From IMG/VR virus record IMGVR_UViG_3300017565_000001, positions 13,741-77,740 of that record: DNA of 64,000 nt; one strand, 5' to 3'. The notes beneath the pieces are model-generated. The model did not search any database and was not told the DNA's origin. It saw nothing but the letters and a program-made list of their open reading frames with translations. This DNA is from a virus (lineage: Duplodnaviria > Heunggongvirae > Uroviricota > Caudoviricetes). The position numbers were made by a program, and so were the translations under genes. Below are positions 21,186-44,884 of the stretch, one piece after another (position 1 is the stretch's first letter; every line of letters begins with the position of its first letter).

Positions 21186-22205
21186 ATGCCCAGCGTAGCG
21201 AGATTAAATGATGCGATCTCTCATGGCGGCCGTATTATTTCTGCCAGTGCTGATACTCAGGCTAACGGTCTTGGTGTTGCTCGTATTGGTGATCTCGCTT
21301 ACTGTGACAAACACGGAACGGTAACAATCGTTGGTGGCGCTCAAACCACATCCACCAACGGTCCCCTGACTGCTAGGGTTGGCGATCTATGCTCATGCGG
21401 TGCCACTATTGTCGGTGGCTCCCCTAACCGTATTGTGGGATACGAGGGCGGTAGCAGTGGCCCAGCAATCAAATTCACATTCCCGGATGGGACTCCTGCA
21501 GAGCTCAATGAGGCTGATTTGGGTTCTTGGGATGATGAGGTTGATACGCAAAACCCAGGTGTAGTCGTTTATCCTAAAATTCAAGGTCGTCCTGCTACCA
21601 GTCGTGAGATTGAACGCAGTAAAGAATTGGGGTATGATCCCGCGGCACCTACTCCGCCAGCTGAAGATAAAGTCACAGAAGCGAAACCTACACCAACGAC
21701 TCCAGTTGATTGTGGTGAGTTTCCAAACCACATTGACTACGGTATGTTTTTGAGCCCTAATTTCAAATTGGAAACTGTAAGCAGCAAGGCAGTCGTTTCC
21801 CCCACTAGGGTGAAGGCACAACGAGGGTTGTCTGAACTTCAAATCATATGCAACCTGAAGGCTGTATGTGTGAACGTTCTAGAGCCTGTTGCAAGACGAT
21901 ATGGGCGTCAGGTCATTGGTATCACTAGCGGCTTCAGACTACAGAAAAACGGTAGCTCCCAGCATGAAATAGGGCAAGCCATCGACCTTCAGTTTAGTGA
22001 TCAGTGGTCAGGTGCTTTGAGCAAACAAGGATGGTGGGAACGAGTTCAATGGATCAAGGACAACGTGCCCTTTGATCAAATGATTCTTGAATATATTGGC
22101 AACAAGCCATGGATTCATCTTTCATACAGTGAAACTGGAAATCGTAAACAACTTCTGACAACGACAAAGAACGGTAAGTACGATCCAGGTTTGATTTTGG
22201 TGTAA
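21186..22205 (+). CDS. PAAR spike-tip protein fused to M15-family Zn peptidase
   Basis: Three PAAR repeats (VARLND, VARIGD..C..HG, TARVGD.CSCG); C-terminal ITSGFR, SQH..GQAID, WIHLS. Confidence 0.85.
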   Translation: MPSVARLNDAISHGGRIISASADTQANGLGVARIGDLAYCDKHGTVTIVGGAQTTSTNGPLTARVGDLCSCGATIVGGSPNRIVGYEGGSSGPAIKFTFPDGTPAELNEADLGSWDDEVDTQNPGVVVYPKIQGRPATSREIERSKELGYDPAAPTPPAEDKVTEAKPTPTTPVDCGEFPNHIDYGMFLSPNFKLETVSSKAVVSPTRVKAQRGLSELQIICNLKAVCVNVLEPVARRYGRQVIGITSGFRLQKNGSSQHEIGQAIDLQFSDQWSGALSKQGWWERVQWIKDNVPFDQMILEYIGNKPWIHLSYSETGNRKQLLTTTKNGKYDPGLILV

Positions 22206-27206: not shown

Positions 27207-27638
27207 ATGACACAACTACAACAATTCAACACACGCATCGCCAATCTGAATGAACTCCAAAAGAAGGTGGATGAAGAATCATCTGCCATGAAAGCGGACT
27301 TTCAAATACTGATCAAGAACAAAACCATTCCTTTGGTGGAACGATGGGACTTCTGGATTTTCGCTCCGTCTTCGCTTAAAGAAAACCATGACTGGTTGCC
27401 CCAATATGGAACAATCCAGAATCGATATGTAAAGTTCTACTGTGATGCTCCTGAGGTTTATGGACGAGGACGCCAAGTGGATTGGGCTGAAATTTTGGAT
27501 GATGCTTTTACGGAAGATGGTACGGTTGAAGCCTGTACTCGTTATACGGGCGAGGTTATGTTCACTCAAGAAGAGATGACAGAGCTTCTGGAATCCATCC
27601 TGGCTGATAATGTGGCATCTTTTAAGTTCGATTGGTAA
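27207..27638 (+). CDS. hypothetical protein
   Basis: Open frame with N-terminal coiled coil. Confidence 0.7.
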   Translation: MTQLQQFNTRIANLNELQKKVDEESSAMKADFQILIKNKTIPLVERWDFWIFAPSSLKENHDWLPQYGTIQNRYVKFYCDAPEVYGRGRQVDWAEILDDAFTEDGTVEACTRYTGEVMFTQEEMTELLESILADNVASFKFDW

Positions 27639-27880
27639 TGATGTCTTTTGCCTACATGGACAAATGTGACGTTGTAAAATTCATACAACTGAATGACACC
27701 AGATATTTGGTTGTCCTTCAAGTTAATTTCAGTCACGCAAACAAACAGATCGTCGAAGAGGTAACGGCTAGTTGGGAATGTGCAAACTACACTGCCGATT
27801 ACACGAGTTGGGCGTTTTACACCACATTGACTATGATTGTTTCAGATCATGTAGCCGTAAGATACAAACTGTCACTTTGA
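27638..27880 (+). CDS. divergent FKL-motif family protein
   Basis: TAATG coupling; SDHVAVRYKLSL*. Confidence 0.55.
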   Translation: MMSFAYMDKCDVVKFIQLNDTRYLVVLQVNFSHANKQIVEEVTASWECANYTADYTSWAFYTTLTMIVSDHVAVRYKLSL

Positions 27881-27885
27881 TCTTG

Positions 27886-27913
27886 TTGACTTTCATAACC
27901 AGATCAGTACAAT
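27886..27913 (+). promoter_or_regulatory. sigma70-type promoter for tmRNA gene
   Basis: TTGACT-16-TACAAT just upstream of the acceptor piece. Confidence 0.7.
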
Positions 27914-27919
27914 TGACTG

Positions 27920-28250
27920 TATTGCTGTAGGGGAAGAAATTCCCCAGACTGTGAAGCAAAGGCGTTCTGGACGCGGGTTCGACTCCCGCCAGCTCCACCA
28001 CCCACACATTGGTCGCGAAAGGGGAAGGTAAAACCTCCGTATCGCAAGGCGTAAGCCCTAGACCCGGTTTGGTGCCAGTGTGTGGATGATGGGGCTGACA
28101 TGGTTTCGACAGGGCGAGATAGTGGAAGATGACAGCACGGTAGGCGATGACCGTAAATCAAGCAAAAACCACAAACGCAAACGACAACGTTTACGCTGCC
28201 GCAGCCTAAGGGCTAAGGCGGGGCAGGAAATGCCTAGCAACAGAAACAAC
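27920..28250 (+). ncRNA. ssrA: circularly permuted (two-piece) tmRNA: acceptor piece ~27920-28000, IVS 28001-28090, coding piece 28091-~28250; tag (A)ANDNVYAAAA*
   Basis: T-arm and CCA end (GGACGCGGGTTCGACTCCCGCCAGCTCCACCA) lie upstream of the 5' end (GGGGCTGACATGGTTTCGAC at 28091); acceptor stem pairs with a G3:U wobble; tag ORF 28177-28209. Confidence 0.95.
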
Positions 28251-28251
28251 C

Positions 28252-28282
28252 AAACGGCCTCCTAGTGGGGCCGTTTTCTTTT
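28252..28282 (+). terminator. intrinsic terminator after tmRNA
   Basis: AAACGGCCTC-CTAGT-GGGGCCGTTT followed by a T-rich tract. Confidence 0.8.
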
Positions 28283-28343
28283 GGCTGTTGACTTTGTATT
28301 CATTTGGTATCATAATACGCTCATCAAAAACACGGAGGTCAAC

Positions 28344-28781
28344 ATGGGATTCAATGTTTGCGGGGTCTGCGGAGCTTGTGATGGACGTGCGGGGATGTTG
28401 ATTCAAGAGGGCGATCGCCCCGCTTGCTGCCAGAACTGCAACGATTCGTTCAAACAAGGAGCATTCGTGATCCATGCTCATTTACGACGAACCCAAGAGG
28501 AACTTGAACGTCAGGGCAAGGCTCTCGATGCCCATCTGCTTCAGAACGATGCGGAGAACCTGATGAAAGAACTGAAGGGTGACAAGAAGGACGTTCAAGG
28601 GAAATACTTGGACCTTCATCAAAAGGTTCTGTGTGCTGACCAGTTTCAGACCACTTCCGGCATTCAAAAACTCGTGTTCGCAAAAGTCGTGGCGTTCACT
28701 GATACGCATGTTCGTATTCGCATTGAAGGCCATAAGAACACCGTGCTGCGGTTACCTGAGCAACTTTGCGTGATTATGTAA
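28344..28781 (+). CDS. Zn-ribbon-containing hypothetical protein
   Basis: TTGACT-17-CATAAT promoter at 28288, GGAGG SD; CGVCGAC...CCQNC. Confidence 0.7.
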   Translation: MGFNVCGVCGACDGRAGMLIQEGDRPACCQNCNDSFKQGAFVIHAHLRRTQEELERQGKALDAHLLQNDAENLMKELKGDKKDVQGKYLDLHQKVLCADQFQTTSGIQKLVFAKVVAFTDTHVRIRIEGHKNTVLRLPEQLCVIM

Positions 28782-36970: not shown

Positions 36971-37230
36971 TGGAAAATCAATTCTGCAAGGTGGTTGACT
37001 TTCACTTCAACAAGGGCCACTTCCAAGATCCTCAGATTCCCATGTGGGTTTTGAAGACCAAGGGCGAAACGCATTACGTCCATCATCTGGATTCCACGGC
37101 ACCATGGTCTACCCGTGAAACGCCCGATCATCCGTCCACCAAGGGTAGTATTAGATTCCGAAATGTCTACCTGACGATCCGTGATGGAAACGCTATCCTC
37201 AGCCCCCAGGAGGAGATGGCTTTCGCCTAA
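36970..37230 (+). CDS. hypothetical phage protein
   Basis: TAATG coupling; FHFNKGH...PMW...TKG.T.YV.H. Confidence 0.8.
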   Translation: MENQFCKVVDFHFNKGHFQDPQIPMWVLKTKGETHYVHHLDSTAPWSTRETPDHPSTKGSIRFRNVYLTIRDGNAILSPQEEMAFA

Positions 37231-39388: not shown

Positions 39389-39463
39389 GGCCACGTAGCT
39401 TAATGGTGAAGCGGCGGTCTCTAAAACTGACGATCGTGGGTTCGATTCCCACCGTGGCCACCA
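39389..39463 (+). tRNA. amber suppressor tRNA (anticodon CUA)
   Basis: Acceptor GGCCACG/CGTGGCC-A-CCA; D arm GCTT/AAGC; anticodon loop CT-CTA-AA (CTA at 39421-39423); T arm GTGGG-TTCGATT-CCCAC. Confidence 0.9.
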
Positions 39464-43675: not shown

Positions 43676-44884
43676 ATGATGAAGGTATTGAAGCAGGAAG
43701 GTTTGTCTCTCATCCGTGCATGGGTGGGTGATCTCTCGGAAATCGAAGACCAGGCACTCAAGCAGGCGAAGAATCTCGCCCGCCTGCCCTTCATCGCAAA
43801 CAACGGCGTCGCCCTGATGCCTGACGTTCACGCTGGTAAGGGTTCCACGGTAGGTTCCGTTATCGCAACCGAACGTGCAATCATTCCCGCTGCCGTGGGT
43901 GTTGACATCGGCTGTGGTATGGTTGCCGTGCGCACCAGCATGAAGGCCAGCGACCTGCCTGAATCCCTGGCGAATATCCGCCATCAAATTGAACGCGATG
44001 TGCCGCTGGGCAACAGCAAGCACGAACGCGACGATCTGGTGAGCGCTCACTGGTCTGGTCGCCAAGACTTGCTTGGTCGCATCAACGAATTGCTGAAGAA
44101 GCATCCGCAACTGGAACAGCGTGGTGAGGCCTATCTGGGCCAACTTGGTTCCCTGGGATCTGGTAACCACTTCATCGAACTGTGTCTGGATGAAAACCAG
44201 GATGTGTGGGTGATGCTGCATTCGGGATCGCGTGGCTTCGGCAACAAGATCGGTACGTTCTTCATTGAACAGGCCATGACCGAAATGAACCGCTACTTCA
44301 TCAAGCTTGACGATCCGGACCTGGCGTATCTGCCTGAAGGTACGCAAAGCTTCGATGACTACGTGGCGGCTGTGAGCATCGGGCAGGACTACGCGATGCA
44401 AAACCGCAAGCAGATGCTGGAGCTCACGATCGCTGCATTGCGTCGTCACATTCCGATCGAATTCACGTTGACTGAAGAAGCGATCAACTGCCACCACAAC
44501 TATGTGGTTCGCGAGAATCACTTCGGCCAGAACATGTGGATCACCCGTAAGGGCGCAATCCAGGCCCGCGCAGGTTCGCTGGGCATCATCCCCGGTTCGA
44601 TGGGGCAGAAGAGCTACATCGTTCGTGGCAAGGGCAATGCTCACTCCTACTGCTCGTGTTCGCACGGTGCAGGGCGTATGTATTCGCGTACGAAGGCCAA
44701 GGCACTGTTCACTCTGAAGGATCTGGCGGACCAAACGCAAGGTGTGGAATGCCGCAAGGATGCTGACGTGCTGGATGAAATTCCGTCCGCATATAAGAAC
44801 ATCGACCATGTTATGGAAAACCAACGGGATCTGGTAGATGTGGTCCACACGCTTAAGGCAGTTCTTTGTGTAAAGGGGTCGTGA
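43676..44884 (+). CDS. rtcB: RtcB 3'-phosphate/5'-OH RNA ligase
   Basis: MPDVHAGKG, VGVDIGCG, GSLGSGNHFIE, HSGSRG, NCHHNY, PGSMG, SHGAGR, DEIPSAYK. Confidence 0.97.
   Translation: MMKVLKQEGLSLIRAWVGDLSEIEDQALKQAKNLARLPFIANNGVALMPDVHAGKGSTVGSVIATERAIIPAAVGVDIGCGMVAVRTSMKASDLPESLANIRHQIERDVPLGNSKHERDDLVSAHWSGRQDLLGRINELLKKHPQLEQRGEAYLGQLGSLGSGNHFIELCLDENQDVWVMLHSGSRGFGNKIGTFFIEQAMTEMNRYFIKLDDPDLAYLPEGTQSFDDYVAAVSIGQDYAMQNRKQMLELTIAALRRHIPIEFTLTEEAINCHHNYVVRENHFGQNMWITRKGAIQARAGSLGIIPGSMGQKSYIVRGKGNAHSYCSCSHGAGRMYSRTKAKALFTLKDLADQTQGVECRKDADVLDEIPSAYKNIDHVMENQRDLVDVVHTLKAVLCVKGS

What the first reader, a model, noticed from the sequence alone, without database searches (positions are those of the whole stretch)
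27886..28282. Phage-encoded circularly permuted two-piece tmRNA with its own promoter and terminator
Seen: the order is promoter, acceptor piece ending ...CCAGCTCCACCA (28000), intervening sequence, then coding piece starting GGGGCTGAC (28091). The G3:U alanyl determinant and the P2 pairings (AGGGCG/CGTTCT, ATAGT/ACTGT, ACAGCA/TGCTGT) are intact. The tag reads ANDNVYAAAA*, followed by a GCAACAGAA-containing end and a terminator. Known: permuted ssrA genes are characteristic of alphaproteobacteria and some betaproteobacterial and cyanobacterial lineages. Inference: the phage acquired or independently evolved a two-piece tmRNA. It hints at the host lineage and could keep ribosome rescue running if host tmRNA or tRNAs are attacked.
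Basis: partly seen in the sequence, partly recalled or inferred. Interest (0 to 1): 0.8.

Follow-up and report, generated by a model that had tools for sequence, protein, structure and literature searches.

The report
Two-piece tmRNA gene in giant phage
A 424-kb soil phage carries a real, selectively maintained, circularly permuted ("two-piece") gene for tmRNA, the RNA that frees stalled ribosomes; phages, including huge ones, are already known to carry such genes, so this is a well-supported new example and not a new kind of thing.

Summary
ARAGORN and two Rfam models (RF04321 134 bits; RF01850 beta-type 128 bits) call a permuted tmRNA. It runs from a sigma-70-like promoter (27886-27913) to an intrinsic terminator (28252-28276), with tag ANDNVYAAAA.

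The gene is not an assembly artefact. Contigs from two soil samples span it unchanged. A roughly 95%-identical variant from a third study keeps the same order and carries three compensatory base-pair changes and two synonymous tag changes.

Across 16 phage and bacterial homologues, helix P2a and the spacer-closing stem covary, and the G3:U pair is invariant. The phage encodes no SmpB, AlaRS or SspB, so the RNA must work with host factors.

The nearest sequences are only 61-71% identical, so no recent donor or host can be named. The "host lineage" hint is weak, because Xanthomonas, Acinetobacter and Bordetella phages carry unannotated permuted tmRNAs of this general type.

Phage two-piece tmRNAs (Melnitz and others, PMC9004378) and huge-phage tmRNAs (PMC7162821) are published, and this scan has noted the same kind of gene on much other DNA (804 notes). 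Verdict: real and probably functional, a new member of a known kind, low interest. The one mildly unusual feature is the AAA tag ending in place of LAA.

The parts
27886..27913 (+). Sigma-70-like promoter: -35 TTGACT (27886-27891), 16-nt spacer, -10 TACAAT (27908-27913). The transcription start is expected near 27920-27921.
   Evidence: Consensus scan, 10 of 12 matches. It aligns to the promoter-like 5' part of the RF01850 model. It shows no change from 27884 to 27931 in the ~95% variant contig, whereas the 80 nt upstream carry 16 changes. Function is inferred.
27920..28000 (+). Acceptor piece (the 3' part of a standard tmRNA). It holds the P2 5' strands (27923-27928, 27948-27952, 27963-27969), an inserted GNRA hairpin at 27930-27945, the T arm at 27973-27989, the acceptor 3' strand at 27990-27996, discriminator A27997 and an encoded CCA at 27998-28000.
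   Evidence: The hairpin pair G27932:C27943 becomes A:U in the variant contig. The exact 5' end is inferred.
28001..28090 (+). Intervening spacer that is removed on maturation. It is closed by an 11-bp stem, CCACACAUUGG (28002-28012) with CCAGUGUGUGG (28075-28085), and has small hairpins inside, including GGC-GUAA-GCC.
   Evidence: Folding of the precursor. The closing stem covaries across 16 homologues, with 6-8 double changes per pair. The variant shows only one change, GUAA to GCAA, both of the GNRA loop type. The only ORF inside it is a 26-codon TTG frame without an ATG, and it gives no other Rfam match.
28091..28283 (+). Coding piece. It holds the acceptor 5' strand GGGGCUG (28091-28097), the D-loop-like UGGUUUCGAC, the P2 3' strands (28110-28116, 28119-28123, 28132-28137), a PK1-position hairpin at 28138-28153, the tag frame, the stop-codon helix, a hairpin at 28222-28234, the GCAACAGAA motif at 28237-28245 and the terminator.
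28177..28209 (+). Tag reading frame: GCA AAC GAC AAC GUU UAC GCU GCC GCA GCC UAA, which reads ANDNVYAAAA*.
   Evidence: ARAGORN. Both changes in the variant contig fall on third codon positions and are synonymous (28200 GCC to GCU; 28203 GCA to GCG).
28196..28221 (+). Helix-5-like stem-loop that holds the stop codon in its loop. The outer stem pairs 28196-28200 with 28217-28221; the inner stem pairs 28203-28206 with 28211-28214.
   Evidence: Fold. The variant contig has two compensatory double changes: C28200:G28217 becomes U:A and A28203:U28214 becomes G:C.
28252..28283 (+). Intrinsic terminator: a 10-bp stem with 6 G-C pairs, followed by a U tract.
   Evidence: It matches the terminal hairpin of RF01850. 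The variant contig diverges immediately after 28277.

Best explanation
This is a functional phage ssrA gene of the circularly permuted, beta-proteobacterial type. Inferred mechanism: host RNA polymerase transcribes one precursor of about 365 nt, from the sigma-70-like promoter to the terminator. The precursor folds so that the acceptor stem is extended by the 11-bp spacer stem. RNase P then cuts before G28091, and 3' trimming stops at the encoded CCA (28000), which releases the 90-nt spacer. The two pieces stay together through the 7-bp acceptor stem and about 18 bp of P2 helices. Host alanyl-tRNA synthetase charges the RNA through G3:U70. Host SmpB and EF-Tu bring it to ribosomes stalled on broken or stop-less mRNAs. 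Translation resumes at GCA, adds (A)ANDNVYAAAA and ends at UAA, so the ribosome is recycled and the product is marked for proteolysis. The likely benefit to the phage is that ribosome rescue keeps up during an infection that makes many truncated mRNAs, whether from host mRNA breakdown or from nuclease-type defences. Shown here: gene identity, architecture, structural covariation, purifying selection, and absence of phage SmpB, AlaRS and SspB. Inferred: transcription, processing, charging, tagging and the benefit.
For: ARAGORN calls a permuted tmRNA with this tag. RF04321 scores 134 bits and RF01850 128 bits, both full length. The promoter and terminator bracket the unit. The cofold reproduces the acceptor stem, T arm and P2 helices. 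RNAalifold on 16 homologues gives all 7 P2a pairs with compensatory changes, an invariant G:U at acceptor position 3, and a covarying spacer stem. An independent soil contig at about 95% identity keeps the gene order, has 7 changes in 364 nt of the gene against 16 in the 80 nt upstream, and shows three compensatory pairs plus two synonymous tag changes. Contigs from two further samples span the gene with no differences. The phage genome has 55 tRNA genes by ARAGORN, RtcB, a true ClpP and an RF1-like gene, so it invests heavily in translation. Twelve of 18 IMG/VR contigs sharing the acceptor 25-mer and five GenBank phages carry the same kind of gene.
Against: There are no expression, processing or tagging data; no RNA run holding this DNA was available. 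The phage has no SmpB, so activity depends on compatibility with an unknown host's SmpB and AlaRS. The tag ends AAAA where nearly all bacterial tags seen here end LAA, VAA, MAA or FAA, which might weaken ClpX recognition. The second stem of pseudoknot PK1 was not identified. The RF01850 score (128 bits) is well below those of bacterial members (169-296 bits).
Confidence: 0.85

Rival explanations
1. The RNA is a working tmRNA whose tag has been retuned. It rescues ribosomes, but the AAA ending (no Leu at the third-from-last position) changes the fate of tagged proteins. They might be degraded more slowly by host ClpXP, or routed to another protease such as one built on the phage's own ClpP. On this reading the phage alters host protein quality control and does not merely top it up.
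For: The tag keeps the ANDxxY part but ends AAAA. Three other phage permuted tmRNAs end RAAA: L003, L017 and Bordetella phage PHB04. None of about 70 bacterial tags seen here ends AAA. The tag is conserved through synonymous changes. The phage encodes a true ClpP-type subunit: NF001368 scores 249.9 bits against a cut-off of 249, while the head-maturation model falls below its cut-off. From memory of E. coli work (Flynn et al. 2001), ClpX reads the C-terminal LAA and SspB reads AANDxxY.
Against: This rests on the tag sequence alone. Ala-rich C-termini may still be good degrons. The sample of tags is small. No phage ClpX or SspB was found (a ClpX search was not run). The ClpP gene lies about 290 kb from the tmRNA gene.
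Confidence: 0.1
2. The gene is a passenger or remnant: a host ssrA copy or attachment-site fragment picked up by the phage, with no function in infection.
For: tmRNA genes are common integration sites, and fragments of them occur in prophages (statement in PMC9004378).
Against: The gene is complete, with its own promoter and terminator. It is only 61-71% identical to the nearest bacterial genes sampled. It is much better conserved than its flanks and shows compensatory changes between variants. The same kind of gene recurs in many phages.
Confidence: 0.03
3. The RNA is a decoy that competes with host tmRNA for SmpB or AlaRS and so blocks host trans-translation, as reported for the tag-less tRNA-like RNA of mycobacteriophage DS6A (cited in PMC11915505).
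For: The phage has no SmpB of its own, so the RNA must draw on the host pool.
Against: The tag frame, the resume codon and the stop-codon helix are intact and under purifying selection. A pure decoy would not need them.
Confidence: 0.02

Closest known systems
Betaproteobacterial two-piece tmRNA (Rfam RF01850 beta_tmRNA; Sharkady and Williams 2004, as cited in PMC9004378 and PMC11915505)
   Same: The gene order is the same: promoter, acceptor piece, spacer, coding piece, terminator. The match is full length at 128 bits. It shares the PK1-position hairpin CGGUAGGCGAxGACCGUAAAUC and the GCAACAGAA tail with the bacterial gene in L150, and the tag has the ANDxxY/F form.
   Different: It lies in a phage. 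Identity to the sampled bacterial genes is only 61-71%. The spacer is 90 nt against 24-65 nt in 13 bacterial genes. There is an extra GNRA hairpin at 27930-27945. The 3' hairpin of the model is not conserved (non-standard pairs). The tag ends AAAA instead of ALAA or AIAA.
Phage-encoded two-piece tmRNAs of marine myophages (OM43 phage Melnitz, pelagimyophages, cyanophages; Buchholz et al. 2022, PMC9004378)
   Same: These are complete permuted ssrA genes in lytic-type phages, lying behind an early-type promoter, with no stated phage SmpB. That paper counted 53 unique two-piece forms among 133 unique phage tmRNAs.
   Different: Melnitz's gene is alpha-type and has a glutamine riboswitch in its 3' part. 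Here the gene is beta-type, no riboswitch or other Rfam family is found, and the phage is a 424-kb soil phage.
tmRNAs of huge phages (Al-Shayeb et al. 2020, PMC7162821) and of megaphage G (PMC12484599)
   Same: A genome over 200 kb with many tRNAs plus a tmRNA and other translation genes.
   Different: Those papers report tmRNAs, and in some cases SmpB, without describing the gene form. This phage lacks SmpB.
Unannotated permuted tmRNA of Sinorhizobium phage Phosso (PV764938.1, 469 kb), the nearest cultured relative found by DnaB-like helicase (55.9% amino-acid identity)
   Same: A related jumbo phage from soil with a permuted tmRNA passing RF04321 at 113 bits.
   Different: Its gene is alpha-type (RF01849, 108 bits), the spacer is about 390 nt, and the flanking genes are unrelated. 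Three other relatives (Atu_ph07, PA5oct, XaC1) have none. The gene is therefore sporadic in this phage group and is probably acquired separately.
Unannotated permuted tmRNAs in Bordetella phage PHB04, Xanthomonas phages JGB6 and Rb1, and Acinetobacter phage BUCT628
   Same: They share the acceptor and T-arm sequence. All pass RF04321 at 103-124 bits, and two pass RF01850 at 94-95 bits. PHB04's tag, ANDDYIRAAA, also ends AAA.
   Different: These are small to medium phages (45-107 kb). Identity to this gene is only 51-59% over the mature parts.

Membership tests
tmRNA (SsrA), permuted two-piece form (Rfam RF04321 / RF01850) | Score above the curated threshold of the family covariance models, over their full length | tested here: met
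   RF04321 scores 134.3 bits (cut-off 47), model positions 1-213. RF01850 scores 128.4 bits (cut-off 84), model positions 1-331.
tmRNA (SsrA), permuted two-piece form (Rfam RF04321 / RF01850) | tRNA-like domain: 7-bp acceptor stem with the G3:U70 alanine identity pair, T arm with a GGUUCGAnUCC loop, discriminator A and a 3' CCA | tested here: met
   GGGGCUG (28091-28097) pairs with CAGCUCC (27990-27996). The G:U pair is invariant in all 16 homologues. The T arm lies at 27973-27989 and ACCA at 27997-28000.
tmRNA (SsrA), permuted two-piece form (Rfam RF04321 / RF01850) | Circular permutation: the acceptor (3') piece lies upstream of the coding (5') piece in one transcription unit, joined by a spacer that is removed | tested here: met
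   The order is promoter, acceptor piece, 90-nt spacer, coding piece, terminator. The same order stands in independent contigs.
tmRNA (SsrA), permuted two-piece form (Rfam RF04321 / RF01850) | P2 helices that hold the two pieces together, supported by covariation | tested here: met
   All 7 pairs of P2a have compensatory changes among the 16 sequences. The two outer P2 helices are seen in this sequence and in the fold only.
tmRNA (SsrA), permuted two-piece form (Rfam RF04321 / RF01850) | Short tag reading frame that starts at an Ala resume codon and ends at a stop codon held in helix 5 | tested here: met
   The frame runs from GCA to UAA at 28177-28209 and reads ANDNVYAAAA. The variant shows synonymous changes in the tag and two compensatory pairs in the stop-codon helix. 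The C-terminal AAA departs from the usual LAA.
tmRNA (SsrA), permuted two-piece form (Rfam RF04321 / RF01850) | Pseudoknot PK1 upstream of the tag | tested here: inconclusive
   A hairpin at 28138-28153 matches the model's PK1-position stem and is shared with L150 and L014. I did not identify the second stem.
tmRNA (SsrA), permuted two-piece form (Rfam RF04321 / RF01850) | Maturation into two base-paired RNAs, alanylation, and tagging activity | not testable with these tools
   No RNA run holding this DNA was listed, and the contigs laid show no RNA ends.
tmRNA (SsrA), permuted two-piece form (Rfam RF04321 / RF01850) | SmpB available in the same cell | not testable with these tools
   The phage genome has no SmpB (PF01668: no match, while the controls rang). 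The host is unknown, though nearly all bacteria encode SmpB (statement in PMC11915505).

The most novel reading that the evidence does not exclude
A subset of phage two-piece tmRNAs (this one, IMG/VR contigs L003 and L017, and Bordetella phage PHB04) has replaced the universal ...LAA end of the tag with ...AAA while keeping the ANDxxY adaptor-binding part. On this reading the change is an adaptation that alters what happens to tagged proteins in the infected cell. It would work together with the phage's own ClpP and its other ribosome-rescue and RNA-repair genes (RtcB, a domain-1-less RF1-like factor, and a suppressor-gated Pth2-like gene noted by an earlier report). The gene would then be part of a phage-run translation quality-control kit, and more than a spare copy of a host function.
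Probability: 0.12. Interest if true: 0.5.

Novelty: new member of a known kind. Interest (0 to 1): 0.22.

Why it matters
The finding adds a well-documented soil and huge-phage example to the published set of phage two-piece tmRNAs. It also gives unusually direct sequence evidence that such a gene is under selection as a structured, tag-encoding RNA: compensatory and synonymous changes between natural variants. In practice it shows that the form or type of a phage tmRNA is not a reliable host marker. It also shows that several GenBank phages (PHB04, JGB6, Rb1, BUCT628, Phosso) carry unannotated permuted tmRNA genes, in one case under a called 'hypothetical protein'. It opens no new question by itself.

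Tried and rejected
(1) Host or donor from the acceptor 25-mer. The motif occurs in one-piece tmRNAs of many phyla, so it is not informative.

(2) Phylogeny of the mature parts against 13 bacterial and 15 phage genes. WIN sits on a long branch in an unresolved polytomy, so no donor can be named.

(3) Synteny with relatives. The upstream DUF7020 protein found no relatives in IMG/VR. The coding-piece 24-mer found only L014. The genes flanking the Phosso tmRNA are unrelated to those here. L014 shares only scattered genes with this phage.

(4) Expression. No RNA holder was listed among the public runs, and the only 'metatranscriptomic' run laid covered just the conserved 32-nt acceptor end, which comes from other organisms. 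This says nothing about expression.

(5) Riboswitch or another RNA family in the spacer or tail, as in Melnitz. Nothing scored below E=0.1.

(6) A protein gene in the spacer, a lead from earlier scan notes. The spacer holds only a 26-codon TTG frame without an ATG, and I saw no Shine-Dalgarno-like sequence before it in the raw sequence, so I treat it as not a gene.

(7) Antisense ORFs at 27904-28161 and 28206-28481. Neither has a Pfam match, and I treat them as spurious.

(8) Stop-codon recoding as an explanation for the nearby tRNA-CUA. The genome is 86% covered by ORFs of 300 nt or more under the standard code, and reading TAG through adds little.

(9) A tag census in the tmRNA database supplements. 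Nothing is held as text. The Sharkady and Williams paper is not held.

(10) The name of the bacterial family holding the nearest beta-type genes (G067) is withheld by the tool, so I name no host lineage.

Full report
**What is there.** The window is bases 13741-77740 of a 424,529-bp IMG/VR virus record with direct terminal repeats, estimated complete. Its large ORFs match phage primase, DnaB-like helicase, both ribonucleotide reductase subunits, a PAAR-lysozyme protein, a tape-measure-like protein, RtcB and topoisomerase II. By helicase, the nearest cultured relatives are jumbo phages: Sinorhizobium phage Phosso (469 kb), Agrobacterium phage Atu_ph07, Pseudomonas phage PA5oct and Xanthomonas phage XaC1. 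The finding therefore lies in a huge phage.

**Check of the observation.**
- ARAGORN reports a permuted tmRNA at 27908-28300 with tag ANDNVYAAAA*.
- Rfam gives RF04321 tmRNA_permuted at 134.3 bits (cut-off 47) and RF01850 beta_tmRNA at 128.4 bits (cut-off 84). Both match their models end to end.
The exact coordinates are in the parts list.
- A consensus scan finds TTGACT-16-TACAAT at 27886-27913 and a 10-bp terminator at 28252-28276.
- Folding the two pieces together reproduces the acceptor stem, the T arm and the P2 helices. Folding the precursor shows the spacer closed by an 11-bp stem that continues the acceptor stem.

**Is it an artefact?** No. Logan contigs from two soil samples, which may be the source of the record, span 27600-28600 or 27600-28475 with no differences. 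A contig from a different study (X5, 2025 soil) covers 27773-28277 without gaps and with 28 differences. That variant is informative in three ways.
- The 80 nt upstream of the promoter carry 16 changes, while the 364 nt from promoter to terminator carry 7.
- Six of those seven changes form three compensatory pairs. G27932:C27943 becomes A:U in the inserted hairpin. C28200:G28217 becomes U:A and A28203:U28214 becomes G:C in the helix that presents the stop codon.
- Two of the six changes are also synonymous third-position changes in the tag (GCC to GCU, GCA to GCG). The seventh change turns a GUAA loop into GCAA, both of the GNRA loop type.
- The variant diverges completely just after the terminator.

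The promoter-to-terminator unit is thus conserved as a block, both as a structured RNA and as a tag-coding frame.

**Comparative structure.** A 25-mer from the T arm and acceptor end occurs in 18 IMG/VR contigs, and 12 of them carry permuted tmRNAs by ARAGORN, several inside tRNA arrays. I aligned 12 of these with the window and with three bacterial beta-type genes found among 151 sampled genomes of the GTDB order of a Burkholderiaceae genome. RNAalifold recovered P2a, the T arm, the acceptor stem and the spacer-closing stem.
- All seven P2a pairs show compensatory changes.
- The spacer stem has 6-8 double changes per pair.
- The G:U pair at acceptor position 3 is invariant in all 16 sequences.

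**Relationships.** Over the mature parts, the gene is 71% identical to the nearest viral gene (L014) and 61-71% identical to bacterial beta-type genes. A maximum-likelihood tree leaves it on a long branch with no supported placement.
- In the family of genome G067, about 23 of 201 sampled genomes gave the two-part match expected of a permuted gene. The best matches were 78-86% identical over 80-140 nt. No recent donor is evident.
- The same 25-mer in bacterial genomes belongs to ordinary one-piece tmRNAs of many phyla.
- Four cultured phages carry permuted tmRNAs that pass RF04321: Bordetella PHB04, Xanthomonas JGB6 and Rb1, and Acinetobacter BUCT628. JGB6 and BUCT628 also pass RF01850. None of these genes is annotated.
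- Pseudoxanthomonas genomes in my sample have one-piece genes, and only 3 of 151 sampled Burkholderiales passed RF01850. The form of a phage's tmRNA therefore does not tell us the form of its host's.
- Phosso, the closest cultured relative, has an alpha-type permuted gene with a spacer of about 390 nt and unrelated neighbours. Atu_ph07, PA5oct and XaC1 have none. The gene is sporadic in this phage group.

**How it most likely works.** The phage genome has no SmpB, no AlaRS and no SspB, and the control genomes rang in each of these searches. The RNA must therefore use host factors. The steps below are inferred from the established tmRNA pathway, not shown here.
1. The precursor is transcribed from the sigma-70-like promoter.
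2. RNase P cuts before G28091, and 3' trimming stops at the encoded CCA.
3. The two pieces stay base-paired.
4. The RNA is alanylated through G3:U70.
5. SmpB and EF-Tu deliver it to stalled ribosomes.
6. Translation resumes at GCA and ends at UAA.
7. The tagged product is degraded.

The phage's wider gene content fits a strategy of keeping translation running under stress. ARAGORN tRNA genes, including an amber suppressor at window 39389-39463. The genome also encodes RtcB, a true ClpP-type subunit and an RF1-like factor that lacks domain 1. It uses the standard genetic code.

**What is slightly unusual.** The tag ends AAAA. None of about 70 bacterial tags seen here ends AAA. Four of the 17 phage permuted tags do: this one, L003, L017 and PHB04. 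From memory of the E. coli literature, ClpX reads the terminal LAA and SspB reads AANDxxY, so the tag may have been retuned. This rests on sequence alone, and I give it low odds. The 90-nt spacer is longer than in the 13 bacterial beta-type genes (24-65 nt). It is almost unchanged in the variant contig and contains no convincing gene or known RNA family.

**Novelty.** Phage-encoded two-piece tmRNAs are published. Buchholz et al. 2022 (PMC9004378) describe Melnitz and count 53 unique two-piece forms among 133 unique phage tmRNAs. Al-Shayeb et al. 2020 (PMC7162821) report tmRNAs, and in some cases SmpB, in huge phages. The 2025 tmRNA database lists 79 phage sequences (PMC11915505). This scan's own notes list 804 earlier findings containing the search words, among them several follow-ups that describe phage two-piece tmRNAs.

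Noticed in passing
G000:C1 about 282,006-282,674, minus strand (L189:1438-2106:-), outside the window: A release-factor-1-like gene that lacks domain 1 (about 222 codons; GGQ and a P-P-T motif present) carries an in-frame TGA. When TGA is read as W, the protein aligns without a break to RF1 residues 87-311 (2fvo, E=9e-41), and the TGA falls exactly on a conserved Trp. The genome otherwise uses the standard code, and ARAGORN found no tRNA with a UCA anticodon. This could be regulated readthrough, but that is unexplained.
   Followed up: partly
window 39389-39463 (+): tRNA with a CUA anticodon (amber suppressor; ARAGORN labels it 'Pyl'; Rfam tRNA 65.9 bits). TAG ends only 52 of 499 long ORFs, and reading TAG through hardly lengthens ORFs, so the code is standard. 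The IMG/VR contig L014 has a tRNA-CUA, a homologue of the window ORF at about 36985-37203 and a beta-type permuted tmRNA within 6 kb.
   Followed up: partly
window 43676-44884 (+): An RtcB RNA ligase (PF01139, 412 bits) lies 15 kb downstream of the tmRNA gene. Together with the RF1-like gene it recalls the bacterial RtcB-PrfH pairing, but the two genes here are about 225 kb apart.
   Followed up: no
G000:C1 329,203-329,799 (L188:1465-2061:+), outside the window: A true ClpP-type protease subunit: NF001368 scores 249.9 bits (cut-off 249), while the ClpP-related head-maturation model scores 78.7 bits (cut-off 120). It is followed by a metallophosphatase/Pnkp-like gene.
   Followed up: partly
GenBank phages: L190 (MF663786.1, about 46,100), L191 (OQ436456.1, about 52,700), L192 (MZ593728.1, about 39,450), L193 (PQ569993.1, about 16,300), L198 (PV764938.1, 349,596-350,198): Five cultured phages carry permuted tmRNA genes that pass the Rfam thresholds and are not annotated in their records: Bordetella PHB04, Xanthomonas JGB6 and Rb1, Acinetobacter BUCT628 and Sinorhizobium Phosso. 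In JGB6 a 'hypothetical protein' CDS is called over the gene on the opposite strand.
   Followed up: yes
window 28288-28316 (+): A second promoter-like site with the same -35 hexamer (TTGACT-17-CATAAT) starts 5 nt after the tmRNA terminator's U tract. It precedes a Cys-rich 145-codon gene (28344-28781, weak match to phrog_2251). In the X5 variant contig this 149-nt stretch is replaced by 158 unrelated bases.
   Followed up: no
run X5, loose end behind window position 28001: Another soil contig continues ...CCACCA(C)TGAGGGGCTGTACTGGTTTCGACAGGG. This is a tmRNA 3' end followed within about 4 nt by a tmRNA 5' end. It is either a permuted gene with almost no spacer or a pair of tandem tmRNA genes, and it comes from another organism.
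   Followed up: no
window 21186-22205 (+): A protein that combines an N-terminal PAAR-like motif (phrog_281) with a C-terminal endolysin-like domain (phrog_894). In Phosso, a PAAR-domain gene lies about 560 bp from that phage's tmRNA gene. The immediate neighbours of the two tmRNA genes are unrelated.
   Followed up: partly
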